From a virus (Duplodnaviria; Caudoviricetes), in the IMG/VR virus record IMGVR_UViG_3300032038_000011, positions 1-64,000 of that record: a stretch of DNA of 64,000 nucleotides; one strand, given 5' to 3'. The notes under the pieces are model-generated. The model worked only from the letters and a program-made list of their open reading frames with translations, made no database searches and was not told the origin of the DNA. Shown in pieces: positions 725 through 53,467 of this stretch. Numbering within the stretch: the stretch's first letter is position 1; each line of letters starts with the position of its first letter. Made by a program: the position numbers and the translations under genes.

Positions 725-801
725 TGGTGGGTGCCTTGGGATTCGAACCCAAGACCACTTGTTTATGAGACAAGAGCACTAACCAACTGTGCTAGACACC
801 C
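725..801 (-). tRNA. tRNA with CAT anticodon (elongator Met or Ile2)
   Basis: GGGTGTC...GGCACCC-A-CCA, loop CT-CAT-AA, TTCGAAT T loop; lacks the initiator three-GC anticodon stem. Confidence 0.9.
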
Positions 802-812
802 ATAAATCTCGC

Positions 813-1224
813 GGTTTCTTCTCCTATTGGCATCTTCTGGGCCTCAATCCATCGGAGCCGCCACTCGATTTCGCCGCGAGTCTCACGTGGGAATACCTAC
901 GCCCGCGAAGCGCACATCCCCTAAAACAATGTGCCTTTCTACTCTTGGTTCACATACCCTTCGGGTACCTCAACTCTCATTACGCAGGAATATCGCGGCT
1001 GACACTAACGAGTTCAACTTCCGTTAGACTGACACCTTATTGCCTTACGACGTAATCTAATCGCCGAGCGAATCTTATGCGTATTCCGGACTACCTTACG
1101 GAGTAAGAGAACTCCCGGCGTTCTTTGATGGCGAACACATAATATAAGTTCTGCTTTCCTTATATTATTAGCCACAACCACTCCTTTTTATTGTCGCGAC
1201 AAAAGGATTTTTACAGGAGGAACC
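813..1224 (-). ncRNA. Candidate large structured ncRNA (~410 nt) between tRNA-Trp and tRNA-CAT
   Basis: GC-rich, many hairpins, complementary ends (GGTT-C-CTCCTGT / ATAGGAG-AAG-AAACC), no credible ORF. Confidence 0.6.
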
Positions 1225-1229
1225 TAAAG

Positions 1230-1300
1230 CAGGAGTTTAAGGATTTGAACCCTAACTTTGAAGGTTGGAGCTTCACGTGCTACCGTTACACTAAACTCCT
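1230..1300 (-). tRNA. tRNA-Trp(CCA)
   Basis: AGGAGTT...AACTCCT-G, loop CT-CCA-AC, TTCAAAT T loop. Confidence 0.9.
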
Positions 1301-1339
1301 ATATTAGGTGAAGGTTTATTTCCCTCACCTTATGTATAT

Positions 1340-1368
1340 ATTATAGCAAAATTTTAGATAAAAGTCAA
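1340..1368 (-). promoter_or_regulatory. sigma-A type promoter driving tRNA-Trp, the ncRNA and tRNA-CAT
   Basis: TTGACT-N17-TATAAT. Confidence 0.85.
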
Positions 1369-3896
1369 GTCTTTTTACTTGTTAAAAACATAATAACTAA
1401 TATCGCAAAACCTATTAAAGCCATAAAATAATTTTCTATTGGAACTTCATCTCCAGTTTGAAACATGCCATATAATGGAGTTTCATAACCCCACATATCA
1501 AATAACTCTTCTAATTCTTCATCAGTAAATTGAGAAAAATCTGGTCGATTTGGAACTGGTTCAGGTAAGTTTCCTAAAATTTCCCCAATTATTTCCGGAG
1601 AAAGAGTTGGCTTTGGAGTCGGAGTAGGACTTGGAGTTGGAGTAGGTGTAGATAAATCTATTATAATAACTGATTCTTCAGTTGGAGTAGGTGTAGGTGT
1701 TGGAGTATTAGTTGGAGCAAGAGTTTCAGATATTGTTGGCGTAGGTGTAGGCGTTTCTGTTGGCTTTATTGTCCCAGTAGGAGTTGGCTCTGGAGACTTA
1801 CTTGGTTTAGCTGTAATAGTCGGCTGTGCTGTTGGAATTACAGTAGGTTTATCTGTTGGAATAATAGTAATAGTTGGTGTAGGACTTGGTTTTGTTGTAG
1901 GGCTTGGAGTTGGTGTCGGTTTTGTAGTAGGTTCATTTGTAGGTTTTATTGTTTCGGTAGGTGCGAGAGTAGGTCTTGGAGACTCACTAGGTTTTCCAGG
2001 GGTAACTGTGACAACTGGTGTATCAGTTGGTTGTATTGTAGGAACTGTGGTGGGTTCAACTGTTGGAGTGGATGTGGGATTGGGAGTAGGCGTTGTAGTC
2101 GGTGCTTCTGTTGGCTTATGTGTAGGTTCCTCCGTAGACGTTGTTGTTGGAGTTGTAGTTATCTCCGGCGTAGGAGAAGGAGTTGGAGTGACTGTTGGAA
2201 TAGGAGTTACTGTAGGCTTTATAGTAATAGTTGGGGTAGGAGTAGGTGTTTCTGTAGGCTTTATAGTTACCGTAGGCACAGTCGTTGGTAATGGAGGAGG
2301 AGTAGATGGCTGTGCAGTTGGTGGAGTAATTATCTCATTTACATATTCTACCTCTACCGTTTCTCCATCGACAATATTAACTATAGAAGTTGTGCCTTTA
2401 ACCTCACTGCTACCAAATACCGTAATAATATAATCATTAAGACTTACATCTTCTTTAATTTCATGTGCGCCGGGCAATACATCTTCTAATTCAAGATATT
2501 GTCCCGCTACAATAGGATATGGTTCTCCGTCAATATAAAATGTAAAAGTTGGCGGCGCAACATATGGAACACCACTGTGATACCATCTTTGATTACCATT
2601 CCAAGTAACCCAATAAATTCTTTCTCCTGGCTTTACTGTAGTAATATCTTTTTGAATTTTAAAGTTCTCTTTATATAATTCAACCTTATCAGTCATTTCT
2701 GGTTCTAATTCTCCCCAACCAGAGAATCCTAAATCTTGCGGCGAATATACTTCTTCGAATATCATGGTAGGAAGTGTGCCGCCAGTTGCGCCAGATTTTA
2801 TTTCGTCCATTCTAAATGGGGTACCATTATTATCGAGCCATATAATCCAATGGTCGGCATCGCCGCACTTATTAGACCTATGTCCTTCTCTACTTGTTTT
2901 TTTAGTTGGATTCATAATAACATCAGTTTTCCATATTCCGCCACCAGCATGAAAATCTGTGCCGTCCATAACATCACAACGAATATGCCAAACATCATTT
3001 ACTAATGTCTTTTGTAGAATAATTTTACCTGGCGCTGGTGTCGCTGTTACAGTTGGAACTGGTTTTGTAATTTTTGGTTCCCAATAGTTAATATGTGCTT
3101 CTCCATGTGCGGTAATGTTCCATCCTACAATAGTTCCGCTATGATTACATGAAGTAATATTTATATCTGCAAATGGAGCAATTAGATGACCGGCTAAGCC
3201 GCCCATATCTACTTTAGACGCATTCGTCCAATATATTTTTTCAATATGCTCTTGAGTTTCATCGCTGCCTTGAGCTTGATAATCCCATTTAGCTAAATTA
3301 ACATAGCCATTTTCGTCTGGCTCGACATAAATCCAATGTTCTCCATCGTTAGGAAATGAATTTATTATGCTAATCCAGTAATCTCTTGTAGATTTAACTG
3401 CGGCCGCACTTAATTTTTTATAAGCATCTTTGCTTTGATTTTCTGTACGACCTTGAAAATACATTTTAGATTCATTATTAAAAACGTAACTTTCCGTTCC
3501 TGAAGGAGTATGATTGATTGAACCGTCGTCTGTGCCACACCAATTATTACTTGTAAGTGTACCGCCAATCCACAAAGAACCTCGAATATGCATATCAATA
3601 AAAGCATCATTTAATGCTATTATTGAATAACCAACCATATTAGATAATTTAACATTAAAATCATGTTCTTCAATAGGTTTTATTTGCACGTCCACTTCTT
3701 CTGAATTGTTGGTTTGGATTTCTTCTGTAAAAACTAAATTTAAATCCAAATCTAAATTTAAATCTTCATCTTCATCTTCTATAGGAAGAATAATGTCTAT
3801 TGGCTCTTCTATTTCTAATTCAAGTTCTTCAGAAAAACTTGGAAATATAAAAAATAAAAAGGCCAATAGTATAAAACATACTATACCCTTTTTCAT
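1365..3896 (-). CDS. Secreted, cell-wall-anchored surface protein: signal peptide, choice-of-anchor-A-like domain, long Pro/Thr linker, QTGD + TM + basic tail
   Basis: MKK + hydrophobic N-terminus; GHLIAPFADI...GEAH motif; (TP)n repeats; C-terminal QTGDE...TM...KKT. Confidence 0.7.
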   Translation of the reverse strand: MKKGIVCFILLAFLFFIFPSFSEELELEIEEPIDIILPIEDEDEDLNLDLDLNLVFTEEIQTNNSEEVDVQIKPIEEHDFNVKLSNMVGYSIIALNDAFIDMHIRGSLWIGGTLTSNNWCGTDDGSINHTPSGTESYVFNNESKMYFQGRTENQSKDAYKKLSAAAVKSTRDYWISIINSFPNDGEHWIYVEPDENGYVNLAKWDYQAQGSDETQEHIEKIYWTNASKVDMGGLAGHLIAPFADINITSCNHSGTIVGWNITAHGEAHINYWEPKITKPVPTVTATPAPGKIILQKTLVNDVWHIRCDVMDGTDFHAGGGIWKTDVIMNPTKKTSREGHRSNKCGDADHWIIWLDNNGTPFRMDEIKSGATGGTLPTMIFEEVYSPQDLGFSGWGELEPEMTDKVELYKENFKIQKDITTVKPGERIYWVTWNGNQRWYHSGVPYVAPPTFTFYIDGEPYPIVAGQYLELEDVLPGAHEIKEDVSLNDYIITVFGSSEVKGTTSIVNIVDGETVEVEYVNEIITPPTAQPSTPPPLPTTVPTVTIKPTETPTPTPTITIKPTVTPIPTVTPTPSPTPEITTTPTTTSTEEPTHKPTEAPTTTPTPNPTSTPTVEPTTVPTIQPTDTPVVTVTPGKPSESPRPTLAPTETIKPTNEPTTKPTPTPSPTTKPSPTPTITIIPTDKPTVIPTAQPTITAKPSKSPEPTPTGTIKPTETPTPTPTISETLAPTNTPTPTPTPTEESVIIIDLSTPTPTPSPTPTPKPTLSPEIIGEILGNLPEPVPNRPDFSQFTDEELEELFDMWGYETPLYGMFQTGDEVPIENYFMALIGFAILVIMFLTSKKT

Positions 3897-4581: not shown

Positions 4582-4610
4582 ATTATAATATAATTTTAGA
4601 GAAAAGTCAA
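4582..4610 (-). promoter_or_regulatory. sigma-A type promoter for the tRNA block
   Basis: TTGACT-N17-TATAAT. Confidence 0.85.
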
Positions 4611-6301
4611 GTATTTTTCTTTACATAATTCCCACTTAGCCAACCAATTTTATCCATAATATAAATAGCATACCAACCATTTGAAGAAATAATTGGTTTA
4701 TTATTTTTATTAACTACTACATTAAGAGCTGTATTTTGGGGCAAATTAGTAATCTTTTCATAAGAAGTTCCATCACCCATTCTAACATTTACAGAATATT
4801 TAGTAACATATTCGCTTTCAATTTTTACAGGTTCTGGCACGACAATTTCTTCTTGTGGCTTTTCTTCTTCAGCAGTTAAATCAGAAAGAGCATTCATTAG
4901 AGCTTTATGAGTCTGTTCGCTATAAATACCATCCACTTCTAGATTGTATTCATTTTGGAAAGTTTTTACAGCAAGTTCTGTTTTTTTACCAAAAATACCA
5001 TCAACTTCTAAGTTAAGATTTAATAAAAGATTTAAATTTTTTTGAAGCTCTTTAACGGCATTTCCTTTAGAACCATTCTTTAAAGAAGTTTCACCAAGTA
5101 TTTCTGTCGCGGGAGCAGCTTGATTTTCTTGATAAATAATGCTTGGAATTTTAAACCAATGAAGCCATTTTCTATCTTTTATTTTAGTTTTAACACAACC
5201 ATACTTAAAGCCACGCTCTTCAACTGCTTCGCCATTTCCAATATAAACTCCAACGTGACCGTCCATATGGAGACCTAATCCTGGAATCTCAGGCAAAGTA
5301 TCAATATTACCCCAATCTAAACCTTGAGATTTCGCGTAAGAAAACATACCATTGGCAGATTTGTCTGGCATATTATTACTTTTATATTTATTTGTGAATA
5401 ATGGGTTTTCTTTTCCAATTGATTCTATAACGTCTTCGCCAGCATTAGTCCATGCGTAACCTTTCATAAGGCCAACGCAATCAGCACAAATTTTGTGTGC
5501 GGCAATATCTGCTTTATAACGAGACATCCTATCAGAAGTATAATGCTCTGGATAGCTTTTGGTCTTAGATTTTAATTTAGATTCTGTACAAGGATATATA
5601 CAAGTTGCATACCAATAGGGCATACCAACGAATTTCTTACAAAATTCTACAAAGTGCATATTACTAAATTTATCATACATAGGTTTTTCCTCCTCGTCTG
5701 GCTCCCAGCCTTCTAAAAACCATTCCAAAGGCTTATCACCATTTATAAGGTTTAAATCTACATCTTCGTTAAGTCCAGCTAGCGTGCCATTACTGGTATA
5801 TTGCCATAAATCATTATAATGCTTTGGTTTAGAAGAATCTGAAGGTATATTACCATCATCTTTACCCCAATGTGGTATCCACATTATATCGCACATTTCA
5901 ATAGCTTTCCCGGCATATTTATATTTTCTGTTGATATACATACCAATTTTTTGACAGCCTAATTTGCGTAATTCTTCTAAAAAGGCAACACAAACTGGTT
6001 CAGTATTAGTTGAATTAAATCTGTCTCCTTCGATATCAGCAATATAGAATAATGGTTTCTTATATGCTTTATTAGCATGTTCTACAAAAAAACGCGCTTG
6101 TTCGCGCGAATCTTTTGCTGTAGTAGCAGTTACATAGTGATATACACCATAAGGAACTTTACTATCTTTTGCATATTTAATATAACGTTTATCTTCTTTT
6201 AGTCCAACAGTTGCGCGAAAAATTACTAAATCAAGTTCAGTACGTGCTAAATCCCAATTAATAGGATAATCTCCTTCAAAAATATCAGCTATTTTACCCA
6301 T
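4607..6301 (-). CDS. Modular lysin: GH25 muramidase + NlpC/P60-like + PG-binding + SH3b
   Basis: ADIEG and LWQYTS...VDLN (GH25); DCVGL...GHVGVYIGNG (NlpC/P60); VDGIFGKKT (PG-binding); VNVRMG...GWLSG (SH3). Confidence 0.85.
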   Translation of the reverse strand: MGKIADIFEGDYPINWDLARTELDLVIFRATVGLKEDKRYIKYAKDSKVPYGVYHYVTATTAKDSREQARFFVEHANKAYKKPLFYIADIEGDRFNSTNTEPVCVAFLEELRKLGCQKIGMYINRKYKYAGKAIEMCDIMWIPHWGKDDGNIPSDSSKPKHYNDLWQYTSNGTLAGLNEDVDLNLINGDKPLEWFLEGWEPDEEEKPMYDKFSNMHFVEFCKKFVGMPYWYATCIYPCTESKLKSKTKSYPEHYTSDRMSRYKADIAAHKICADCVGLMKGYAWTNAGEDVIESIGKENPLFTNKYKSNNMPDKSANGMFSYAKSQGLDWGNIDTLPEIPGLGLHMDGHVGVYIGNGEAVEERGFKYGCVKTKIKDRKWLHWFKIPSIIYQENQAAPATEILGETSLKNGSKGNAVKELQKNLNLLLNLNLEVDGIFGKKTELAVKTFQNEYNLEVDGIYSEQTHKALMNALSDLTAEEEKPQEEIVVPEPVKIESEYVTKYSVNVRMGDGTSYEKITNLPQNTALNVVVNKNNKPIISSNGWYAIYIMDKIGWLSGNYVKKNT

Positions 6302-6326
6302 AATCTCACCTTCTTTTTTGAGGTAT

Positions 6327-6357
6327 AAAAAAAGAGTTTGATTAAAATCAAACTCTT
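6327..6357 (-). terminator. Rho-independent terminator ending the tRNA transcript
   Basis: AAGAGTTTGATT/AATCAAACTCTT hairpin followed by a T run on the minus strand. Confidence 0.7.
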
Positions 6358-6367
6358 ATAAAATATA

Positions 6368-6498
6368 ACAAGTCGCTTTAATAGAAGGATGTTTATTAGA
6401 CATCTGCCTAAACCATTTGGCTAACTACGCGATTTGGTGCGTGGTATGGGATTCGAACCCATATGTTCTATAAAGAACAATTGCTGTGAGCGACTTAT
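6368..6498 (-). ncRNA. Circularly permuted tRNA-like RNA (anticodon AAT) enclosed in an ACAGCAA stem element
   Basis: Order: variable arm, T arm, 3' acceptor + ACCA, AATC linker, 5' acceptor, D arm, anticodon arm; flanked by AAGTCGCT/AGCGACTT. Confidence 0.8.
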
Positions 6499-6501
6499 AA
6501 A

Positions 6502-6591
6502 TGGCGTAGGGTACAGGATTTGAACCTGTGTGCCGTATTTCAGACAACTCGCTTTCCAGGCGAGCACCATCAGCCTCTCGGTCAACCCTAC
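6502..6591 (-). tRNA. tRNA-Ser(GGA)
   Basis: Loop CT-GGA-AA, long variable arm, G73-CCA. Confidence 0.9.
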
Positions 6592-6595
6592 ATAT

Positions 6596-6686
6596 TGGCG
6601 CGGGCTAAGGGATTCGAACCCTTGCGACTTTTACATCCTATCTGATTTCGAATCAGACCTCTTAACCCAGACTTGAGTAAACCCGC
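6596..6686 (-). tRNA. tRNA-Ser(CGA)
   Basis: Loop TT-CGA-AA, long variable arm, G73-CCA. Confidence 0.9.
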
Positions 6687-6776: not shown

Positions 6777-6886
6777 AAGACAGTTTTTTTCGATTATGTC
6801 AGAGTCGAACTGACGTTTTTTAAATTGGAAGTTTAATGTATTATCCACTATACTAATAATCAAATTAAATTTGCTGTAACTGTCTT
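6777..6886 (-). ncRNA. ACAGCAA stem element enclosing a degenerate AT-rich tRNA-Gly(TCC) (6790..6862)
   Basis: AAGACAGTT/AACTGTCTT stem, TACAGCAA, cloverleaf TGATTAT...ATAATCG-A with loop CT-TCC-AA, no CCA. Confidence 0.75.
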
Positions 6887-6965: not shown

Positions 6966-7038
6966 ATGGTTAGCTGATTTTCGGTCATATCAGCCACAGT
7001 AATATTTATTTATAGTCGCTACTCAATATATTTTATGA

Positions 7039-7076
7039 CCTACGACATCCAGTTTTAAATTGCCGCGAATCATAGG
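7039..7076 (-). ncRNA. Empty variant of the stem element (CGCGGCAA)
   Basis: CCTATGAT/GTCGTAGG stem with GCGGCAA + AT-rich loop. Confidence 0.45.
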
Positions 7077-7092
7077 AAAACTATTAACCTTA

Positions 7093-7172
7093 TGGTGGCC
7101 AAGGTTGGAGTCGAACCAACATAACGGGTTTTTCTGACCTTAATAAAAAATAATATTTGCAGTAAAGGTCTA
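7093..7172 (-). pseudogene. Stem element (TACTGCAA) fused to a tRNA 3' half (Phe-like)
   Basis: GACCTT/AAGGTC stem, then GAAAA-ACCCG, T arm GTTGG-TTCGACT-CCAAC, CTTGGCC-A-CCA; no 5' half. Confidence 0.65.
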
Positions 7173-7283: not shown

Positions 7284-7312
7284 ATTATACCAGAATTTTT
7301 ACTTAAAGTCAA
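7284..7312 (-). promoter_or_regulatory. sigma-A type promoter for tRNA block 6327-7250
   Basis: TTGACT-N17-TATAAT with extended TG. Confidence 0.85.
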
Positions 7313-21017: not shown

Positions 21018-22622
21018 TTAATTCATTAAGAACCATTTTATATCTTTATTCTTACTTATAATAATGTTCATATCAACATTACCTTTAATACCAGCAATTT
21101 TTCCGGTACTAGTATACTGCCATAAATCACATTCAAAAGCAGGTTTTTTACTGCCTTCTATAGTTCCATCATTTTTATTATACCGCGGAATCCACGTAAA
21201 GTCAAATAAATCACTAATAGATGAATAATTATAATCATTATAATGATTATGTGCTACATAACAACCAATTTTTTTAATACCTTGCGTGCGAAGTTCCTTT
21301 GCGAAAGTTTTAATAGCCAAATTAGTTATTTTAGCTTCTTCCGCATCCATTACATAAAATAATGGATTATATTTTGAAGAGTATTCAACCATTTTTCTTA
21401 CTTCATCTTTAGCTTTTTCAGTTGTGCTAGCGTAAGAATAACAATATACTCCAAATGGAATATTATATTTAATCATTTCTTTTGCGTATTCATCTAATTT
21501 AATGTCTTTATCAGAACCACAAGACGCACGAACAATAACAAGAGAAACTTCATCCTTTAATTTATTAAAATCTATTTTCCCTTGCCATTTTGAAATGTCA
21601 ATTATTTTTCCATCTAAATTATAAGTAGTTTCTTTTTTAATTGGTTCTACTTTTTTGTCATTTTCTGGACTAGAATTTTTTTTTATAGGCCAAAAAATAA
21701 ATGCTTGTTTTAAACATTTTTTAAATTTACTTTTTTCTTGTTTTCTTGGAGTAGTATCTTTATTTGGGTCATTAGCATAAAAATATGTATTATCTACTCC
21801 ACGAGCAACAATAAAATGACCTTGAGAAGTCCAAAACTTATTATCATTTGAATTCATACTACAAACCGCGAGAGCACCTTCACGAAGTGCGGCTTCAAGA
21901 GTAGCAATACTAGACGTTGCAATATATTTTTCAAAGCAATCAAATTTTTTGAAAATCCATTTAAAAAAATCCCAATCAGTTCCCTTATTATATGTTCTAT
22001 AACCATTATCTACTGCCCATTTACTTGTTTCAATGGGTGTAATTTTAGGATCTTCCCAAGTAGCAAGAATCATTGCCATAGAGGTAGTCCCGCAGCCACT
22101 ATTGCCAATTGTTTGCTTACTTGTGTGAGTGCTATATTTAACATTCTTCCATTTTGAATCCCACTGTAAATATTTAACACACTTATTTAATATTTTATCT
22201 GTTGATGGAGTTATAGTTTTACCAACAATTAATGCGGCCCAAGTCTTTGGTCCACAAATGCCATCTGCTTCAAGACCACAAGCACTTTGAAATGCTGCAA
22301 CTGCCTTTTTGGTTTTAGAACCATATTCTCCATCTACATTTAATCCGCCAATCAAAATTTGAATTGCACAAGTATACACACTCTTTTTATTTTTACTAGT
22401 AGAACAAGTTGGCAGTTCTTTTCCCATCGCAATCCAATCATCATCATTAATAATTCCATTGGCGGTTAAATTATGTTCTTTTTGCCATTTTATAATAAAA
22501 GTTTTAAAGGCGTCGTCAAATGTTTCAGACGCCTTTAAAATTTTTGCATATTTAGTTAAATATTGGGCTACGGCAACTAGTTTATCAGTATCTTTAACTT
22601 GAATAGTTTTTAGCATAATCAT
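21018..22622 (-). CDS. Second modular lysin: PG-binding x2 + C39-like peptidase + GH25
   Basis: DGICGPKTW; YLQWD...SGCG.TSMAM...GHFIV...NDP; IDISKWQG...LWQYTS...VDMN. Confidence 0.85.
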   Translation of the reverse strand: MIMLKTIQVKDTDKLVAVAQYLTKYAKILKASETFDDAFKTFIIKWQKEHNLTANGIINDDDWIAMGKELPTCSTSKNKKSVYTCAIQILIGGLNVDGEYGSKTKKAVAAFQSACGLEADGICGPKTWAALIVGKTITPSTDKILNKCVKYLQWDSKWKNVKYSTHTSKQTIGNSGCGTTSMAMILATWEDPKITPIETSKWAVDNGYRTYNKGTDWDFFKWIFKKFDCFEKYIATSSIATLEAALREGALAVCSMNSNDNKFWTSQGHFIVARGVDNTYFYANDPNKDTTPRKQEKSKFKKCLKQAFIFWPIKKNSSPENDKKVEPIKKETTYNLDGKIIDISKWQGKIDFNKLKDEVSLVIVRASCGSDKDIKLDEYAKEMIKYNIPFGVYCYSYASTTEKAKDEVRKMVEYSSKYNPLFYVMDAEEAKITNLAIKTFAKELRTQGIKKIGCYVAHNHYNDYNYSSISDLFDFTWIPRYNKNDGTIEGSKKPAFECDLWQYTSTGKIAGIKGNVDMNIIISKNKDIKWFLMN

Positions 22623-24136: not shown

Positions 24137-25084
24137 TTATGCAGTTCCACCATTTAAAATAAATTCACTTCCATCAGGGACGAATAATTTATCTGTAGAA
24201 ACTCTATTAACTTCCATAATGCCAAGAGCACTAACTGAAATTTTATTATCTAAATTAGAAGAATAAACTCCTCCTAGTACTGTAGAAGTAGCAATTGGAA
24301 TTTTATTAATATCAGAAGCAAGAACTCCACTATCAATAATAGAACCGTCCGCGGCAAAAGCAGGAACATGTCCTTCAGTATAATTTCCAGTCGTAGGTTT
24401 TTGCAAATAATTTGATAAATCAACTGAAGTATCTCCAATTTGAACTAATTGATTATCAATTACTATATATTCTTTATATTTATCAGGGCCACTAGAAGTG
24501 GTGTCTAAAATCATATAAATAGTATTAGGGTCAATAGCTTCTGAAGGTAATTCTGTAACTACTTGTCTTTTTAAATGTGGAGCTCTAACAATTGCATCAG
24601 TAATTGCGTTATCAACGTAATTTTTTGTTGAGGCTTCTGTAGAATATATAGGATCTCGTGCGAGAGTAATTAAAGCTCCATCTAATTTACCTTCAATTCT
24701 ATTATAATTAATTTTAGGAACAACCCAACGAGCTACATGATTTTTAATTTCTAGTTCTAATGTTGCGGGCCATTTTGATAAATCTTCTTCAATAATTTCT
24801 ACTTCTTGAGCATTTTCACTATCATAAGTCCAATAACTATAGCCATAACCTGCTATAGTAAATTGATTATTATTATTAGTAGTGATTAAAGCTCCATCTC
24901 CTGCTTTGCCTAAATTAATATAATTTAATTCATTAAAATGTTTTGAACCGTCGCCAATTTTTAATAAACCAGTATCAATTTCTGCTCCAAGTTCTCCTTT
25001 AGATAAAACAGGATTCCGAGAGGCCCAAGTTGCGGCTAAATCATTTCTAAGAATAAGAGTTGCTCTTACATTATTTTGTGCCAT
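24137..25084 (-). CDS. Mtd_N-like structural protein
   Basis: LRND.AA.W...NPVL.KGE.G.E.DTG..KIGDG. Confidence 0.7.
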   Translation of the reverse strand: MAQNNVRATLILRNDLAATWASRNPVLSKGELGAEIDTGLLKIGDGSKHFNELNYINLGKAGDGALITTNNNNQFTIAGYGYSYWTYDSENAQEVEIIEEDLSKWPATLELEIKNHVARWVVPKINYNRIEGKLDGALITLARDPIYSTEASTKNYVDNAITDAIVRAPHLKRQVVTELPSEAIDPNTIYMILDTTSSGPDKYKEYIVIDNQLVQIGDTSVDLSNYLQKPTTGNYTEGHVPAFAADGSIIDSGVLASDINKIPIATSTVLGGVYSSNLDNKISVSALGIMEVNRVSTDKLFVPDGSEFILNGGTA

Positions 25085-29129: not shown

Positions 29130-29555
29130 TTACTTAAACTTCTCCTCTACAAAACCTCTAGTGGTAGTATAGAAAATTCGCTTCACGCCCAAGTCTCGCA
29201 AAAGACGGTAGCAGGATTCACAACACCTGCTATTTGCCAGAGAACCATCTTTATATTCTCTATACAAATAAATATCTACCTTTGCCCAATTCAAGTTATC
29301 ACCAAACTTCCAACGCAATCGCTGCACGAGAGAAGTTTCGCAATGAGTTTTGGGCGGGAGAGAAGGATTATTATAACGATAAATATTATAACGAGCTTGA
29401 AGTGGAGAGGTTTTATCAGTATTCCACGCTTCGGCTACGATACTGCCTTTATATACCGCAACCGCGCCAATCGCAGGAGAATTACTAGTGCCTTTATTTT
29501 TGTAATCTGCTTTCTTAGATGCTTCGCGTGCGAATTTGAAAAACCTCTCGTTCAC
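29130..29555 (-). CDS. Zn-dependent nucleoside/nucleotide deaminase (CDA/TadA fold)
   Basis: IGAVAV...HCE...SRCCESC...GVKRIFYTT. Confidence 0.75.
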   Translation of the reverse strand: MNERFFKFAREASKKADYKNKGTSNSPAIGAVAVYKGSIVAEAWNTDKTSPLQARYNIYRYNNPSLPPKTHCETSLVQRLRWKFGDNLNWAKVDIYLYREYKDGSLANSRCCESCYRLLRDLGVKRIFYTTTRGFVEEKFK

Positions 29556-29609
29556 TTCAAAATATCCCCTTTCCTTGCTTACATATTTATTATACTATAA
29601 TTTAGGGAA

Positions 29610-30409
29610 TTAGTCAAATATAACCCATTTATTGATGAAATCAGGATTTTGAGAAACCATTGGCATTTCTAGATCAATAGTAAACTTATCACGCATAATA
29701 GAAGACTGTGTGCCATCTTCGTTGTTATGATAAATTTCGTGCGGCTGCTTATAAATAGCAATACCATTTTTAAACCAAGTGGGGTATTTAGACCAATTTA
29801 CCTGATGCTCTTGCCAAAGCATTTCTTGAATCTGGTCGCAATTCTTATTTTGAAGTTGTTTTTGCGAAAAATAAGCTTGACCTGCGAGTTGAATAGAATT
29901 ACGAACGCAGTCTAGTTGTCGCCAATAAATATAATTAGCAACCTCTTCTCGTGGGATAATAAATGCACGAGCATCAAATACGCAAAGTTTTTCACTATAA
30001 GCTTTATAATGAGCTGATCCATTTGATTGCTCTTTTGAAGATAAGATAGCTGTGAAAAAGTTTTGCCTAAAAAAGAAAGTAGCCATACTTGCGGAAATAC
30101 TTACAATCTTTTGTAGATTATTTCCAAACCAAGGCTCGGTATTAATATTCTTATAATCTACTAGAACCAGAGAAATCTCGTCGCTTTGCGTATAGCCTAG
30201 TACACAACCGCTAATGTTTTCGCAAAGTTGCTTTGCGGTTTCCCGCATACATTGGGCAAATAAAGCATCGTATGGTCGATTAAAACCTTTTGTAAAGCTA
30301 TGAAACGCACGGCCATCAATACGCACAATTACAGCTTGCCGCTTCGGTAAATAAATACGATAACAATTTTCGTATGCCTTCATACGAGCGCCTAAATCTG
30401 AATGATCCA
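29610..30409 (-). CDS. Thg1-like tRNA(His) guanylyltransferase / 3'-5' polymerase
   Basis: RIDGRAFHSFT, YTQSDEISL, FDARAF, WRQ.D..RNS. Confidence 0.9.
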
Positions 30410-31207
30410 TTAATATTCTGAATCTCCTTTCTTCCACTTTTCTTCACTACTATCTTCATAATATGGATCATGATAACCACTATAATCAATTATAGCAAAA
30501 TGACCATCAATATCTCCAATATTATTTAAATGTAAATCATTAATATCCCATTCAAGACTAAATTGAGAAAAAGCTTTATATTCATCCATTCCATACTCTC
30601 GAATAAAAGCAGTAGCTACTGCTATATTACGAGAACGAAGAGGGCTTGCGACTTTTTTCGCAAGATTAGATGTCGCACGATCCGCAGGACCGCAATCATA
30701 ACTTTCTGCTTTACGATATGCGTAAAGAGGAATAGAAATGGTTATAGGACAAACTGGTCCGAATTTTTCTTCATTTTCTAAAAATTTTTTTTCAAAACAG
30801 TCTGGGTCATAATCGTAAAAATCGCCTATATTTTCTTCAATATCATTAAAATTATAAAAATTAATTGTACGAATATAAGTTCCAAGATATATTACTTCAG
30901 CAAAATAACGTTCAAGAGCATACGCCTTTGAAGCATTATAGATTTCAACTTCTCGCTCACAAGGGCTTCCAAAAGCGTCCTCTTCTACATCAAATTTTAC
31001 TACCCAATCATAATCCTGGTCAATAAGACAAGTTCGAGTAGCTCCGCTACTAATAAGAAGCCTCGCGGGAAGTTCTTCATAATCATTTCCATCTATAATA
31101 TCAGAAAAACCATAGGGCCTCTGAAAATACATATCAAAAAACAAAGAATTTTCCAACATTTCATCAATTATTGTAGAAAAATGATTGAAGATTTCTTGCT
31201 TACTCAT
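30410..31207 (-). CDS. Protein-kinase-like protein
   Basis: SSGATR, VVKF, E, DLHLNNIG, IIDYSG; start at MSKQE downstream of promoter 31236..31264. Confidence 0.65.
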   Translation of the reverse strand: MSKQEIFNHFSTIIDEMLENSLFFDMYFQRPYGFSDIIDGNDYEELPARLLISSGATRTCLIDQDYDWVVKFDVEEDAFGSPCEREVEIYNASKAYALERYFAEVIYLGTYIRTINFYNFNDIEENIGDFYDYDPDCFEKKFLENEEKFGPVCPITISIPLYAYRKAESYDCGPADRATSNLAKKVASPLRSRNIAVATAFIREYGMDEYKAFSQFSLEWDINDLHLNNIGDIDGHFAIIDYSGYHDPYYEDSSEEKWKKGDSEY

Positions 31208-31346
31208 AATATTCTCCTTTTCACTTTCTGTAATAATTATATCATATTTTTTATTTGAAGTCAATTAATTAAACTGTTAAAACCACCTATACGAAAAATG
31301 CTATAATTAAAATGATAATAGTAATTGGTGATATAATTTTCTCCTT

Positions 31347-35388: not shown

Positions 35389-36264
35389 TTAATGCGCTGC
35401 TAAATCTGCTTCATGAAGAAGCATTAATTCATTCCAAAGTTCTTCACCTAAACGCTCTCGCCAAGTAGCTTGTGCGCGCGAATCCATATAAGGAATCATA
35501 TGATAATTTATTAATGTAGCACAATGGTAAGAATCGCCCAGATTTAAAGAAAGATAAGCACTAACATTTTCGTGATTAGGGTAATGAGCATTTTTACCAT
35601 TATCTTTCTTCCAATATTCTTGCGTCCAAGCTTTACCAAAATCATGCCCTAATGCTGCTTCACAAATATAAGTCTTAAAATTATTTTTAAGAGTATAATC
35701 ATAGGCGTTAACACAATGCTCAAATAAAGTTAAAGTATGATGTTCATTTTTTTGATCGCCAAAATTAAGAACTTGATTAAGAATTTTATGGTATACTTCT
35801 CGTCTTTCTTCATAAGTACAATTGTGAACTACATCAATAATATCAAAACCCTCATTATAAACCGGAAGCTGTAGGGTCTTTAACTGCTTCATAAAAAGCC
35901 AATCCGGAACTTGACGTTCACGCATCTTATTCTGCTTCTGGCATACTTCTATCGGAGTATTAAAAACAACTGCGCGAATAATAGCATCCGGCCGCACGCT
36001 CTTCATCTGACGAATAGCATGAAGTCGATACTTCATAGTAAGATTGGTAGAACAGAAAATAACAGACTTATCCGCGCGCAGAGCATCTTTTGCGCGCTTA
36101 TAGATAAGATTAAAAACCTTATCCGGATTATCCTGGCAGGTAGCATCGCCATAAAGCTCTTCGCGCACAGCATCAGAATCTAGTACAACATAACCTTTCT
36201 GCTTATAAGCCCAAGTGGTCTTACCCGAAGCAGCAATGCCTACACAAAATACAACCTCTACCAT
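35389..36264 (-). CDS. Polynucleotide kinase-like (P-loop) + HD-domain protein
   Basis: GIAASGKTT, DSD.VR, R.R.VP; HH.LTL.EH...HDFGK...HE...HM...H.AD. Confidence 0.8.
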   Translation of the reverse strand: MVEVVFCVGIAASGKTTWAYKQKGYVVLDSDAVREELYGDATCQDNPDKVFNLIYKRAKDALRADKSVIFCSTNLTMKYRLHAIRQMKSVRPDAIIRAVVFNTPIEVCQKQNKMRERQVPDWLFMKQLKTLQLPVYNEGFDIIDVVHNCTYEERREVYHKILNQVLNFGDQKNEHHTLTLFEHCVNAYDYTLKNNFKTYICEAALGHDFGKAWTQEYWKKDNGKNAHYPNHENVSAYLSLNLGDSYHCATLINYHMIPYMDSRAQATWRERLGEELWNELMLLHEADLAAH

Positions 36265-36277
36265 AAGTTCTCCTTTC

Positions 36278-36628
36278 TTAATGCGCGATAAATTTAGCGT
36301 TATCTGGAAAGTCATGAATTAATCGTTTTGGCAAATCTCCTATAAACCAAAGAGAATGAGTTTTTACAATTACTCCATCGTTAAATTGGATTTCCCAATA
36401 TTTTCCACCCATTCCATGAGGTTCATCTTTTTCGCTACCAATTTGATAAGCTTTTCTATCAATAATAACGTATTCATGATTTCTATCATTTATTACTCTT
36501 GCGGCAAATTTATCCCAGTGATAAAATTCATAACAGTTATTTTTGCCACAAATATAACTATTTGGGCCAATATTATAATAAAAATCACCTTGAATCTTTT
36601 GGCCGCAAACATAACAATACTTATCCAT
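36278..36628 (-). CDS. Hypothetical protein
   Basis: ORF with promoter at 36659..36687. Confidence 0.6.
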   Translation of the reverse strand: MDKYCYVCGQKIQGDFYYNIGPNSYICGKNNCYEFYHWDKFAARVINDRNHEYVIIDRKAYQIGSEKDEPHGMGGKYWEIQFNDGVIVKTHSLWFIGDLPKRLIHDFPDNAKFIAH

Positions 36629-48426: not shown

Positions 48427-49146
48427 CTACTCATTTGTTACATTTCTCTTATTTAGCTTAATCCAGTTAATTAGACCAATAATAGCCATAATTAGATAGA
48501 TAGATTTCTTAGTAAGATAAACGGGATCAAAATGCTGAATGTACATTGCTACAGCAACAATATCAGTAATAATCCACCATACATACTGCTCGCGGAATCG
48601 GAATAGCTCAAGAATAACAGCTACAATACCAATAGCTAGTGTCGCAGCGTCAAGCCAAGCTACGTTCCCGCCGACTTTGACAAGAATAGCGTGATAAATT
48701 ACAGTACCTGCGACAATTACGCCTGCGACCAGAGCATTCTGCCACCAAGTCATCTTTCTACTCTTAGTTAGCTCATTCTGCTGCTCGTCACGATGTCGTG
48801 CCCAATACCACCAAGAAATGATATTCATCGGGGCATAGAAGAAAATTTCAAGACACATCGTGCCGTAAATCTTCCAATACCAAAGATAAATAATATAAAC
48901 AAAGGTATTGATACAGGCGAACGGGAAATTAGAAATAGAGCCTTTCGCGCAAAGGAAAATACAAAACACACCAGCAATAGCACTGATAAAATTAATTACC
49001 GTTAGCCAAGGCGGGTTCATACTTTCTGCGGGATTCATAAAACTAAGAACCATTGCTCTTGCCGCAATAAAAATCATAATTGCGGCCATAAGCCATTCGT
49101 AAGGCTTCATTGCTTTCAACGACTTCTTCAGATTTTTAAACTTCAT
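48427..49146 (-). CDS. pnuC: Nicotinamide riboside transporter PnuC
   Basis: Multi-TM; KG...NF, WLDA, REQY..W..TD. Confidence 0.8.
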   Translation of the reverse strand: MKFKNLKKSLKAMKPYEWLMAAIMIFIAARAMVLSFMNPAESMNPPWLTVINFISAIAGVFCIFLCAKGSISNFPFACINTFVYIIYLWYWKIYGTMCLEIFFYAPMNIISWWYWARHRDEQQNELTKSRKMTWWQNALVAGVIVAGTVIYHAILVKVGGNVAWLDAATLAIGIVAVILELFRFREQYVWWIITDIVAVAMYIQHFDPVYLTKKSIYLIMAIIGLINWIKLNKRNVTNE

Positions 49147-52320: not shown

Positions 52321-53467
52321 TTTTACTTACAAGAGTTTGGAGATGCGCGGAAAGACTCTTCGCGCGCATCTCTTTATAAAATTCGTTCGCATTCTGCACC
52401 TTATTATCAAGCCGCGCGAAAAGAAAAGACTTTAGTGGCCCGATATAAGTACAAGCATAACGAGCAAAATCTGCACGAGTAGCAGGAGAATGCGACATTA
52501 TAGTAGAGAAAGCTAAGTCAGCAATATCAATTAAATGTTGCAACTGATGAATAACTTCATCAACAAAAGAACGAAATTCCGGATAATAGGCAATAAAATC
52601 ATCAAGAGAATCATTTTGCCACATTTCCACAACTCGTAGAACAGTTAAAGCTCCATTACCACGCAGCTTATGTAGCCGCAAGTATTCGTCGCCTTTAACC
52701 TTTATACGCAGAACAGAACCATTTTCTTTTTGATTATACGCAGTAACTACATAGCCTTCTTCATCTACGCCCATCTTATGCGCGGCTTCAATACATTCTG
52801 CAAGAGAAGTATAATGAAAATGGCGCGGACGCTTAACCCAAGAAGAATTCCAAAATAAGAAATCTTCGATTCCCATTCCAGTATCTTCTTCCATATTCAT
52901 CATCTTACGCATACCAAGAAAATAAATCGCAGCTTCATTGTAATGAATAACAATACGGTTCATCGGAGATACCATTTCAAACCAGTAGGTATACAAAGGA
53001 GATAGAGTAGAAAGAAATTCACCCCAAGAAACATGCTGCTGGATGATAGACTTAAAGATAGCACCAAAAGTAGTATCGCCGCATTCAGCCTTGAAAGCAT
53101 CAATAGTTCCATTAGTAGAAATATGCCATTCATTCCGGTCATACCATACTTTAATAATAGAACCATCAATCTTTTCCTGTACGTCTACGCCAAGAGTCCA
53201 ATCTATACGATTAGTAGAAGCATAAGATTCTCCATAGTTACCAAATTTATCCATTGCGCGGCAAATACAAAACCATTCACCCGCATCATTTTGACGAAAG
53301 ATAGACCCGCGCGCTTCAATAACTTCAGGTAGGTTAAAATCAGACTGAATCATATTATACTTTAAGATATAATAATCTCCATCCTGCTTGGTTTCAATAA
53401 AATACGGAGCAACAGCTAATTTAGCTTGCCAATCCGAATTTTCATTCATAAACTTAGTCAAATACAT
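52292..53467 (-). CDS. T4 Rnl1-like RNA ligase
   Basis: EARG.IF, KF.N, EKIDGS (motif I), FEM..P.NRIV, EGYVV, IKVK..Y. Confidence 0.85.
   Translation of the reverse strand: MYLTKFMNENSDWQAKLAVAPYFIETKQDGDYYILKYNMIQSDFNLPEVIEARGSIFRQNDAGEWFCICRAMDKFGNYGESYASTNRIDWTLGVDVQEKIDGSIIKVWYDRNEWHISTNGTIDAFKAECGDTTFGAIFKSIIQQHVSWGEFLSTLSPLYTYWFEMVSPMNRIVIHYNEAAIYFLGMRKMMNMEEDTGMGIEDFLFWNSSWVKRPRHFHYTSLAECIEAAHKMGVDEEGYVVTAYNQKENGSVLRIKVKGDEYLRLHKLRGNGALTVLRVVEMWQNDSLDDFIAYYPEFRSFVDEVIHQLQHLIDIADLAFSTIMSHSPATRADFARYACTYIGPLKSFLFARLDNKVQNANEFYKEMRAKSLSAHLQTLVSKNEIGINEDE

What the first reader, a model, noticed from the sequence alone, without database searches (positions are those of the whole stretch)
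6368..6498. Circularly permuted tRNA gene in a phage
Seen, minus strand 5' to 3': ATAAGTCGCT-CACAGCAA-TT, variable arm GTTC-TTTATA-GAAC, T arm ATGGG-TTCGAAT-CCCAT, 3' acceptor ACCACGC-A-CCA, linker AATC, 5' acceptor GCGTAGT, D arm, anticodon arm GATGT-CTAATAA-ACATC, then AGCGACTTGT. The 3' half precedes the 5' half, the acceptor pairs 6/7, the flanks form a 10-bp stem, and a terminator follows. Known: permuted tRNAs occur in some algae and archaea and mature via BHB cleavage and a circular intermediate; bacterial YrlA Y RNAs also run T-acceptor-D but lack an anticodon arm. Inference: it is either matured by cleavage, ligation (Rnl1/PNK are in this window) and opening of the CCA-AATC loop, or it is a tRNA-mimic decoy or tether. 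The Tyr/Leu-like body with an Ile (AAT) anticodon is also anomalous.
Basis: partly seen in the sequence, partly recalled or inferred. Interest (0 to 1): 0.85.

Follow-up and report, generated by a model that had tools for sequence, protein, structure and literature searches.

The report
Inside-out tRNA mimic, Y-RNA-like
The last gene of this phage's tRNA operon is a real "inside-out" tRNA look-alike held shut by a clamp helix. It belongs to a widespread, apparently undescribed family of phage small RNAs that travel with a Ro60-shaped protein, so it is most likely a Y-RNA-type partner RNA rather than a working tRNA.

Summary
Window 6368-6498 (minus strand) reads: clamp helix, CACAGCAAU, variable hairpin, T arm, a 7-bp acceptor hairpin with A-CCA-AAUC in its loop, D arm, full anticodon arm, clamp helix. 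It lies between tRNA-Ser(GGA) and a terminator. Un-permuted in silico, ARAGORN calls it an 88-nt tRNA.

It is not a one-off. The same layout (clamp helix, ACAGCAA, V region, T arm, closed acceptor, D arm) recurs in many unrelated large IMG/VR phages, with strong covariation: 93.8% of cells pair against 64% in shuffles, and 31 of 35 pairs show compensatory changes. Only 3 of about 25 lineages carry an anticodon arm. In this element's orthologues the CCA loop is replaced by an ACA triloop and the "anticodon" changes from AAU to AAC. A decoding tRNA is therefore unlikely.

Family-bearing phages almost always encode a DUF2828/DUF7788-vWA protein on the same strand, 1-26 kb away. Its predicted fold matches only Ro60 structures. 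In this record, synteny places that gene 2.5-3.5 kb beyond the contig end.

My reading is a Y-RNA-like (YrlA-like) tRNA mimic with a new protein-binding handle. It fails Rfam YrlA membership. This scan has noted the same family on other DNA, and I found no published description. RNA-protein binding, processing and function are inferred, not shown.

The parts
6489..6498 (-). Clamp (closing) helix, 5' strand AUAAGUCGCU. The family consensus for the outer part is U-W-A-G-R.
   Evidence: Family covariation: all 7 inner pairs show double changes and 93.9% of cells pair.
6480..6488 (-). Single-stranded handle motif CACAGCAAU (family core CAGCAA).
   Evidence: The core is also kept in paralogues found by the covariance model alone (CCAGCAAU, UGCAGCAAC, CGCAGCAAU).
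6464..6479 (-). Variable-arm hairpin UGUUC-UUUAUA-GAACA.
   Evidence: Length and sequence vary across the family.
6446..6462 (-). T arm AUGGG-UUCGAAU-CCCAU.
   Evidence: 100% of cells pair in 28 family members.
6424..6445 (-). Closed acceptor hairpin: 3' strand ACCACGC, loop A-CCA-AAUC, 5' strand GCGUAGU.
   Evidence: Orthologues show the compensatory pair and an ACA loop. In the family 29/38 pair 7/7 with 37 distinct sequences, and 13/38 loops start N-CCA.
6405..6423 (-). U8, A9, D arm (GCC...GGC with G18 G19 in the loop) and A26.
   Evidence: Rfam tRNA alignment. The D-loop changes in orthologues break the alternative MFE pairing but fall in the loop of the D-arm fold.
6388..6404 (-). Anticodon-arm mimic GAUGU-CUAAUAA-ACAUC ('anticodon' AAU at 6397-6395).
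   Evidence: The loop reads AAC in four orthologues. A complete arm is present in only 3 lineages of the family.
6368..6387 (-). A/U-rich linker CUUCUAUUAA and clamp helix 3' strand AGCGACUUGU.
6325..6357 (-). Intrinsic terminator that ends the tRNA operon.
   Evidence: 11-bp stem plus a U tract.
7284..7312 (-). Promoter of the operon that ends with the element (TTGACT, 17 nt, TATAAT, with TG).
   Evidence: 11 of 12 matches.
6777..6886 (-). Second handle in the same operon (AAGACAGU / UACAGCAAA / ACUGUCUU), enclosing a whole tRNA-Gly(UCC).
   Evidence: It has orthologues in L075 and L079.
7136..7170 (-). Third handle-like hairpin (GACCUU / UACUGCAAA ... AAGGUC) with no cargo.

Best explanation
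The element is a small structured RNA made as the last unit of a phage tRNA operon. It has two modules. The first is a 'handle': a 9-10 bp helix formed by its two ends, plus the single-stranded motif ACAGCAA just inside the 5' strand. The second is a circularly permuted, complete tRNA mimic (V hairpin, T arm, capped 7-bp acceptor, D arm, anticodon arm). It belongs to a widespread phage RNA family built on the same handle.

By analogy with Ro60/Y RNA particles, I infer that the handle docks onto a phage-encoded Ro60-fold ring protein (DUF2828/DUF7788-vWA). I also infer that the tRNA-shaped module recruits, gates or distracts a tRNA-recognising factor, such as a processing, repair or nuclease enzyme. 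In this copy the A-CCA-AAUC loop on a 7-bp acceptor makes RNase P cleavage and trimming to a CCA end plausible, as shown for M. smegmatis YrlA. That would give a nicked two-piece RNA held together by the clamp. It is not a decoding tRNA.

Shown here: the structure, family membership, covariation, the genomic link to the protein, and the protein's predicted Ro60-like fold. Inferred: RNA-protein binding, processing and biological role.
For: Structure and stability.

Orthologues keep the fold, with one compensatory pair.

Family: a covariance model built on the orthologues finds paralogues and distant members in related and unrelated IMG/VR phages. It finds only 3 in 80 pattern-matched bacterial loci.

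Covariation: in 28 members 93.8% of cells pair, against 63.8% in shuffles and 31-42% in slid controls. 31 of 35 pairs have double changes, and 0 of 500 shuffles reach the observed score. A test that does not depend on the alignment gives acceptor pairing of 6.71/7 against 4.86 when strands are swapped between members.

Protein link: PF25043 (DUF7788) is present in 16 of 20 family-bearing records and 11 of 13 near-complete ones. It lies on the same strand as the RNA and 1-26 kb away. In the reverse test, 80 loci around the protein gene hold 124 strict handles on the sense strand, 16 on the antisense strand and 15 after shuffling. 37 of 44 loci over 15 kb have at least one.

Fold: the AlphaFold model (pLDDT 76.8) has all 12 of its significant Foldseek matches in Ro60 structures (9KOP, 9L5Y, 1YVR, 2I91, 2NVO, 9NEN), aligned at full length with probability 1.00.

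Precedent: YrlA is a T-acceptor-D mimic on a Ro60-binding stem. M. smegmatis YrlA, with a 7-bp acceptor, is cut by RNase P and gains CCA in vivo (PMC4201824). Phage phiLo Ro60 binds phage Y-like RNAs and host PNPase (PMC12135203).
Against: The protein gene is absent from this 137-kb record. Its presence is inferred only from synteny with two relatives, which places it 2.5-3.5 kb beyond window position 1.

There are no binding, transcript or processing data.

The handle motif ACAGCAA is not the GNCGAAN0-1G/CGAA Ro60-binding motif. Pfam TROVE does not detect the protein.

Both the RNA and the gene lie in or near tRNA-array regions, so part of the linkage could reflect a shared genome neighbourhood.

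The same handle also wraps an ordinary tRNA-Gly. That could instead point to a processing or stability role.

The predicted fold aligns to Ro60 with only modest TM-scores (0.45-0.58).
Confidence: 0.68

Rival explanations
1. It is a genuine permuted tRNA gene. RNase P and 3' trimming open the CCA-AAUC loop. The two pieces, or a ligated product made by Rnl1/PNK, are then charged and decode Ile or Val codons after A34-to-I editing.
For: The un-permuted sequence is called a tRNA by ARAGORN. N-CCA sits exactly after the 7-nt acceptor 3' strand here and in 13 of 38 family members. The discriminator is A73. A dCMP/cytidine-deaminase-fold protein lies at 29130-29555. Rnl1, an AAA_33+HD kinase and a Thg1-like enzyme are in the window.
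Against: Orthologues at 89% identity have an ACA triloop and no CCA. The anticodon switches between AAU and AAC on an otherwise unchanged body. L082 has an A.C mismatch in the anticodon stem. About 22 of 25 family lineages have no anticodon arm at all. I saw no bulge-helix-bulge, and I know of no bacterial splicing endonuclease (the latter from my own knowledge). The clamp and two long linkers would sit inside the tRNA core. The relatives already carry ordinary tRNA-Ile genes.
Confidence: 0.07
2. It is a free-standing decoy. The RNA soaks up a host tRNA-targeting defence enzyme (an anticodon nuclease or a CCA-end modifying toxin) without needing the Ro60-like protein.
For: This copy mimics a complete tRNA, including the anticodon loop and a CCA. 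The phage carries a tRNA array and tRNA-repair enzymes. Phage tRNAs are known to counter tRNA-directed defences (from my own knowledge).
Against: It does not explain the conserved handle or its tight linkage to the Ro60-fold gene. Most family members lack the anticodon arm and many lack CCA.
Confidence: 0.12
3. The clamp plus ACAGCAA is a leader-trailer processing or stability signal of the polycistronic tRNA transcript. The permuted tRNA-like cargo is a by-product or a recruitment site for RNase P.
For: The same handle encloses an ordinary tRNA-Gly and also occurs empty. Elements abut tRNA genes, so their ends are set by tRNA processing.
Against: The cargo itself is conserved and covaries over great evolutionary distance. 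The linkage to the Ro60-fold gene is not expected for a generic processing signal.
Confidence: 0.1
4. It is a non-functional remnant of a tandem tRNA duplication and deletion.
For: Tandem duplication automatically gives a 3' half followed by a complementary 5' half.
Against: No parent exists among the phage's tRNAs (68% identity at most). The clamp helix is not explained by this route. The element is conserved with compensatory change in orthologues and across a large family.
Confidence: 0.02

Closest known systems
YrlA (Y RNA-like A; Rfam RF02553; Chen et al. 2014, PMC4201824), the partner RNA of bacterial and mycobacteriophage Ro60/Rsr
   Same: The terminal helix is formed by the 5' and 3' ends, with a conserved motif on the 5' side. 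The internal tRNA mimic runs V, T arm, capped acceptor-like stem, D arm, and the D arm is often the same UAGCUCAAUUGGUAGAGC. Several paralogues occur per genome, including cargo-less ones (like YrlB). It is co-transcribed with tRNAs. The 7-bp acceptor variant is cut by RNase P and carries CCA.
   Different: The handle motif is ACAGCAA, not GNCGAAN0-1G. The handle is a single short helix, not a bulged multi-helix stem. The partner is a DUF2828/DUF7788 protein that Pfam TROVE does not detect. This copy has a complete anticodon arm and an encoded CCA. Rfam scores are far below gathering: no hit for the window copy and 30-35 bits against 69 for relatives.
Thermus phage phiLo Ro60 with Yrl1/Yrl2 (Hu et al. 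2025, PMC12135203; PDB 9KOP, 9L5Y)
   Same: A phage-encoded Ro60-fold ring sits with phage-encoded Y-like RNAs nearby. 9KOP is the best structural match of the partner protein's model.
   Different: phiLo Ro60 was found as a UniProt Ro60 homologue, and its RNAs carry CGAA motifs and are hairpins. The paper does not describe them as tRNA-like (0 occurrences of 'tRNA-like').
Circularly permuted tRNA genes of Cyanidioschyzon merolae, other algae and Thermofilum pendens (from my own knowledge)
   Same: The 3' half (T arm, acceptor 3' strand) lies upstream of the 5' half, joined by a short linker, and the termini pair with each other.
   Different: Those genes mature through a bulge-helix-bulge, a splicing endonuclease, a circular intermediate and RNase P/Z into essential decoding tRNAs. 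Here I saw no BHB, the anticodon arm is dispensable in the family, CCA is lost in orthologues, and the setting is a bacterial virus.
Two-piece (permuted) tmRNA of alpha-proteobacteria and cyanobacteria (from my own knowledge)
   Same: The gene order is permuted, with T arm, acceptor 3' strand and CCA upstream of the acceptor 5' strand. The mature RNA is held together by pairing.
   Different: There is no tag reading frame or pseudoknots, the element is only about 130 nt, a real D arm and anticodon arm are present, and ARAGORN calls no tmRNA.
T4 species 1 and 2 RNAs (rnaC, rnaD)
   Same: They are stable small RNAs of unknown function embedded in a phage tRNA cluster, and rnaC ends in a T arm plus an acceptor-like strand.
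   Different: The family model does not match them beyond the T arm (9.5 bits). I saw no clamp helix with the ACAGCAA layout in them.

Membership tests
YrlA (Rfam RF02553) | Scores at or above the Rfam gathering threshold (69 bits). | tested here: not met
   The window element gives no YrlA hit even at E <= 10. Family relatives score 30.6-35.3 bits, aligned only over the T/AS/D core.
YrlA (Rfam RF02553) | tRNA-like domain in the order V, T arm, capped acceptor-like stem, D arm. | tested here: met
YrlA (Rfam RF02553) | GNCGAAN0-1G (Ro60-binding) motif near the 5' end (PMC4201824). | tested here: not met
   The 5' region reads AUAAGUCGCUCACAGCAAU. The family motif is (Y)ACAGCAA(W).
YrlA (Rfam RF02553) | Encoded within about 4 kb of a TROVE-domain Ro60 gene and on the same strand. 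| tested here: not met
   Pfam TROVE is absent from the own record, from 5 relatives and from 23 family-bearing records. A Ro60-fold DUF2828/DUF7788 gene lies on the same strand, but usually 5-12 kb away.
Stem-ACAGCAA handle RNAs of phages (not described in any paper I found; defined here and in earlier notes of this scan) | 9-10 bp terminal helix, with outer consensus U-W-A-G-R / Y-C-U-W-G, directly followed on the 5' side by N-A-CAGCAA. | tested here: met
   UAAGUCGCU / CACAGCAAU / AGCGACUUG. Family logo and covariation.
Stem-ACAGCAA handle RNAs of phages (not described in any paper I found; defined here and in earlier notes of this scan) | Lies in or beside a phage tRNA array and is co-oriented with the tRNAs. 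| tested here: met
   It is the last unit of the promoter-to-terminator operon 7312-6332.
Stem-ACAGCAA handle RNAs of phages (not described in any paper I found; defined here and in earlier notes of this scan) | The genome encodes a Ro60-fold DUF2828/DUF7788-vWA protein on the same strand. | tested here: inconclusive
   The gene is not in the 80%-complete record. Synteny with G002 and G017 places it 2.5-3.5 kb beyond the contig end.
Permuted tRNA genes (algal and archaeal type) | The 3' half precedes the 5' half, and the re-joined sequence is a canonical tRNA. | tested here: met
   ARAGORN calls the un-permuted sequence an 88-nt tRNA.
Permuted tRNA genes (algal and archaeal type) | The termini form a bulge-helix-bulge substrate for a splicing endonuclease. 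| tested here: not met
   By reading the sequence and the MFE fold, the termini form a plain 10-bp helix flanked by 9-10 nt single strands, not 3-nt bulges around a 4-bp helix. I ran no dedicated BHB scan.
Permuted tRNA genes (algal and archaeal type) | The anticodon and charging end are conserved, as expected of a decoding tRNA. | tested here: not met
   The anticodon reads AAU or AAC, CCA is deleted in 3 of 5 orthologues, and most family members lack the anticodon arm.
Two-piece tmRNA | A tag reading frame and pseudoknots lie between the acceptor 5' strand and the 3' end. | tested here: not met
   ARAGORN finds no tmRNA. Only a D arm and an anticodon arm follow the acceptor 5' strand.

The most novel reading that the evidence does not exclude
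Phages with tRNA arrays carry a large, undescribed branch of the Ro60/Y-RNA system: a DUF2828-type Ro60 ring plus a set of ACAGCAA-handle RNAs that display tRNA parts. In the rare members with a full anticodon arm and an encoded CCA, such as this one, the particle presents a complete, RNase P-opened tRNA. This tRNA would act as bait or template in the contest over tRNA cleavage and repair. For example, it could capture an anticodon nuclease, or bring broken tRNAs to the phage Rnl, PNK and Thg1-like enzymes.
Probability: 0.2. Interest if true: 0.85.

Novelty: new variant of a known kind. Interest (0 to 1): 0.66.

Why it matters
Y RNAs and Ro60 are conserved from bacteria to humans, yet their roles remain poorly understood. 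Known bacterial and phage Y RNAs (YrlA) were found only next to recognisable TROVE genes.

This element belongs to a much wider phage family with a different handle and a Ro60-fold partner that sequence models miss. The family sits inside tRNA arrays, and in this window it shares the phage with RNA-repair enzymes. That gives a tractable system of one small RNA and one protein for asking what tRNA mimicry by Y RNAs is for.

This copy is a complete tRNA written inside-out, with a genomically encoded CCA. That makes it a natural test case for whether such mimics are opened by RNase P, modified or charged.

It is also a caution for annotation. tRNA finders miss these genes, and a permuted tRNA reading is tempting but probably wrong.

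Tried and rejected
- blastn of the element against 50,697 GenBank phage records gave no match.
- Rfam at gathering threshold gave only ordinary tRNAs. Rfam at E <= 10 on the element gave only the tRNA 5' half plus chance hits.
- Searches for a recognisable Ro60 (Pfam TROVE), RtcB and a CCA-adding enzyme in the record found none. TROVE was also absent from 5 relatives and 23 family-bearing phages.
- Rnl1 as an obligate partner was rejected: it is present in only 4 of 10 near-complete family-bearing records.
- A recent origin from a neighbouring tRNA was rejected: identity to the phage's 13 tRNAs is at most 68%.
- T4 rnaC/rnaD as members was rejected.
- A PDB sequence search with the partner protein gave nothing. 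Only the fold search found Ro60.
- The same DNA pattern in 185,579 prokaryote genomes gave many matches, but only 3 of the 80 loci returned contain the RNA. The family is therefore essentially viral.
- Covariance-model hits that overlap two adjacent ordinary tRNAs score 23-41 bits. Examples are L040:1501, L047:2892, L089:971 and window 6529-6660. I identified these with ARAGORN and discarded them.
- The MFE alternative to the D arm was rejected because substitutions in the orthologues break it.
- Literature searches for permuted tRNAs in phages, phage tRNA-like RNAs in tRNA clusters, and DUF2828 found no description of this family.

Full report
**1. What is there**

On the minus strand, immediately after tRNA-Ser(GGA) (6502-6591), lies a non-coding stretch of about 131 nt. 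It reads, 5' to 3':
- clamp strand AUAAGUCGCU (6498-6489);
- CACAGCAAU (6488-6480);
- a hairpin, UGUUC-UUUAUA-GAACA;
- a canonical T arm, AUGGG-UUCGAAU-CCCAU;
- ACCACGC, then A, CCA, AAUC, then GCGUAGU, which form a 7-bp acceptor helix capped by an 8-nt loop, with 6 of 7 pairs;
- U, A and a D arm with GG in its loop;
- A26;
- a 5-bp, 7-nt-loop anticodon arm, GAUGU-CUAAUAA-ACAUC;
- CUUCUAUUAA;
- the complementary clamp strand AGCGACUUGU (6377-6368).

An intrinsic terminator follows at 6357-6332. A near-consensus promoter (11 of 12 matches, with TG) sits at 7312-7284. The element is therefore the last gene of a promoter-to-terminator tRNA operon.

The RNA folds far better than shuffles: -37.9 kcal/mol, z = -5.0, and 0 of 200 shuffles fold as well. 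ARAGORN and Rfam at gathering threshold do not call it. The Rfam tRNA model aligns only to the 5' half, at 18 bits. When the two halves are re-joined in silico without the clamp, ARAGORN calls an 88-nt class II tRNA, 'Ile(aat)'. The description 'circularly permuted tRNA' is thus literally accurate at the level of sequence.

**2. Orthologues**

The window is the first 64 kb of a 136,935-bp IMG/VR phage record estimated to be 80% complete. Four other phage contigs carry the orthologous element at 89-97% identity. These are L002/L038, L005/L039, L003/L037 and L082.

They keep every helix; 97% of cells pair, against 29-43% when partners are slid. Acceptor pair 6 changes from G:C to U:A, and the A.C mismatch becomes A-U.

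Three features argue against a decoding tRNA:
- In L039, L037 and L082 the loop is just ACA. Five bases, including CCA, are deleted.
- The 'anticodon' is AAU only in the window and AAC in the other four.
- L082 has an A.C mismatch in the anticodon stem.

In L038 the element is followed directly by tRNA-Arg rather than by a terminator. Its ends are therefore set by tRNA processing. No tRNA of the phage is a recent parent; identity is at most 68%.

**3. A family, not a singleton**

I built a covariance model on the orthologues (R1). It finds further full-length matches in related phages, which I reached through their portal protein. These share the clamp helix, the motif (C/U)ACAGCAA(U/A) or close variants, a V region, the T arm, a capped 7-bp acceptor and the D arm. 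Their helices have entirely different sequences.

R1 confirmed about 30 members in unrelated contigs of up to 424 kb. The same pattern in prokaryote genomes gave only 3 confirmed members in 80 loci. Matches that merely span two adjacent ordinary tRNAs score 23-41 bits. I removed them with ARAGORN.

On 28 members:
- 93.8% of cells pair, against 63.8% in shuffles and 31-42% in slid controls.
- 31 of 35 pairs show changes on both sides.
- No shuffle out of 500 reaches the observed covariation.
- All 7 inner clamp pairs and all 7 acceptor pairs covary.

That alignment is fitted to the model, so I also ran a geometric test that does not depend on it. I took the 7 nt after the T arm as the acceptor 3' strand and looked for the best complement downstream. 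The result was 6.71 of 7 pairs, with 29 of 38 members perfect and 37 distinct sequences. It dropped to 4.86 when strands were swapped between members. The located strand is followed by U-A-G in 32 of 38 members. The outer clamp is semi-conserved (UAAGAC...GUCUUG or UUAGAC...GUCUAG, where the W:W pair covaries).

**4. How this copy differs from the typical member**

Only three lineages have a complete anticodon arm: this one, L155 and L132 (the latter two with loop CUUGAAA). All others go from the D arm through a short A/U-rich linker straight to the clamp.

Thirteen of 38 loops begin N-CCA exactly after the acceptor 3' strand, followed by a U/A-rich linker of 1-13 nt. The rest are mostly 3-8 nt loops without CCA. 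This is far above the 1 in 64 expected by chance, so the CCA is maintained in part of the family. Yet it is dispensable between close orthologues.

The handle also occurs with other cargo:
- In this operon it encloses a whole tRNA-Gly(UCC) (6777-6886).
- It occurs empty at 7136-7170.
- In relatives it holds acceptor-less tRNA-like cargo or AT-rich cargo.

**5. The protein partner**

My first searches found no Ro60 (Pfam TROVE) in the record, in relatives, or in 23 family-bearing phages. Earlier notes of this scan on other genomes claimed a 'Ro60-shaped' partner, so I tested that claim.

In the complete relative G002, 8 kb downstream of the orthologous element and on the same strand, lies a 546-aa protein with DUF2828, DUF7788 and a weak VWA_2 match. 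An Rnl2-type RNA ligase follows it.

- DUF7788 is present in 16 of 20 family-bearing records, and in 11 of 13 near-complete ones. One near-complete record without it, G005, had no RNA match at E <= 1e-4. The other, G042, has only a weak match (27 bits).
- The gene is on the same strand as the RNA and 1-26 kb away.
- Conversely, 80 IMG/VR loci centred on homologues of this protein contain 124 strict handles on the sense strand. A strict handle is an 8-bp helix flanking N-N-CAGCAA. The antisense strand has 16 and shuffled sequence has 15. Of 44 loci longer than 15 kb, 37 have at least one.
- A sequence search of the PDB finds nothing.
- The AlphaFold model (27-sequence alignment, pLDDT 76.8, pTM 0.69) has all 12 of its significant Foldseek matches in Ro60 structures. 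These are phage phiLo, Xenopus, Deinococcus and human Ro60, at full length, with probability 1.00 and TM 0.45-0.58. Next come isolated vWA domains.

The protein is absent from the own record. But window 738-1703 aligns with G002 and G017 in such a way that the gene would lie 2.5-3.5 kb beyond window position 1, off the contig end.

**6. Mechanism**

Shown here: a stable, conserved, covarying RNA with a handle and a tRNA-mimic module; genomic coupling to a protein with a predicted Ro60 fold; and a position inside a tRNA operon.

Established elsewhere:
- Ro60 binds the terminal stem of Y RNAs, chiefly through conserved bases of the 5' strand.
- Bacterial YrlA carries a T, acceptor, D mimic that TruB and DusA modify.
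- M. smegmatis YrlA, the one with a 7-bp acceptor, is cut by RNase P and gains CCA in vivo, and both halves stay on Rsr (PMC4201824).
- Phage phiLo Ro60 binds its own Y-like RNAs, recruits host PNPase and damps its activity (PMC12135203).

Inferred:
- The clamp plus ACAGCAA is the docking site for the DUF2828-type ring.
- The tRNA-shaped module recruits, gates or diverts a tRNA-recognising factor.
- In this copy RNase P probably cuts before G+1, and the AAUC tail is trimmed to CCA. This would give a nicked mimic held together by the clamp.

The window also encodes a Thg1-like enzyme, an AAA_33+HD kinase/phosphoesterase and Rnl1. A role in the contest over tRNA damage and repair is therefore attractive, but it is untested. 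Rnl1 is not a constant companion.

**7. Comparison and novelty**

The closest known kind is YrlA/Ro60. Functionally and architecturally the resemblance is strong. Membership in Rfam YrlA fails on score, on the Ro-binding motif and on the TROVE neighbour (see the membership test).

Algal and archaeal permuted tRNAs share only the gene order. Two-piece tmRNA and T4 rnaC/rnaD are looser analogies.

I found no paper describing the ACAGCAA-handle family or a function for DUF2828. The library lacks many subscription journals, so this is not proof of absence. This scan has reported the same family on other genomes. My tests here agree with those notes.

I therefore class it as a new variant of a known kind (Y-RNA-like tRNA mimics). 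This copy is a rare sub-variant: a full cloverleaf with an encoded CCA.

**8. Caveats**

- The partner gene is not in this record.
- The co-occurrence statistics lack a matched control set of tRNA-array phages without the RNA.
- The pattern scan fixes the motif and the T loop by construction. Motif conservation is independent evidence only in the members found by the covariance model alone.
- There are no expression or binding data.

Noticed in passing
window 6777-6886 (-): A tRNA-Gly(UCC) that is AT-rich, has a U1.G72 pair and A73, and has no encoded CCA. It lies wholly inside a handle (AAGACAGU / UACAGCAAA ... ACUGUCUU). It is conserved in L075:5646-5754 and L079:11308-11415.
   Followed up: partly
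window 7093-7170 (-): An empty handle-like hairpin (7136-7170) is followed by an orphan tRNA 3' half: anticodon-stem 3' strand, T arm, CUUGGCC-A-CCA. No matching 5' half is nearby.
   Followed up: no
window 7016-7028 (-) and T4 rnaC (L317, about 1950-1965, -): The 13-nt string AUAUUGAGUAGCG is shared between the spacer upstream of tRNA-Lys and T4 species 1 RNA. I estimate roughly a 1-in-400 chance match. It could mark another conserved small RNA in the 6966-7092 spacer.
   Followed up: no
window 813-1224 (-): A non-coding stretch of about 410 nt between tRNA-Trp and tRNA-Met is conserved at 76-80% in G002 and G017. Rfam at gathering threshold gives no hit.
   Followed up: no
window 29130-31264, 35389-36315, 52292-53467 (-): An RNA-repair and editing toolkit: a dCMP/cytidine-deaminase-fold protein (29130-29555), a Thg1-like 3'-5' polymerase (29610-30437), an AAA_33 kinase fused to an HD domain (35389-36315) and Rnl1 (52292-53467).
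   Followed up: partly
L071:14116-17318 (relative G002): The Ro60-fold DUF2828/DUF7788 gene is followed about 0.9 kb downstream by an Rnl2-type RNA ligase (PF09414). HNH and GIY-YIG homing endonuclease genes are interspersed in the tRNA array.
   Followed up: partly
L048:1501-1636, L062:1501-1637, L042:2094-2221: Another element type lies between tRNA-Thr and tRNA-Ile in the relatives. ACAGCAAU comes first and pairs with a 3' GCUGU. An anticodon-arm-like hairpin (loop CUGUAAA) precedes the T arm. This suggests a different permutation point.
   Followed up: no
window 4607-6301 and 21018-22622 (-); 24137-25084 (-); 48427-49146 (-): Two GH25 lysins with PG_binding_1 (one also with SH3_3, the other with a C39-like peptidase), an Mtd_N-domain tail protein (possibly a target of a diversity-generating retroelement) and a PnuC-type NMN transporter.
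   Followed up: no
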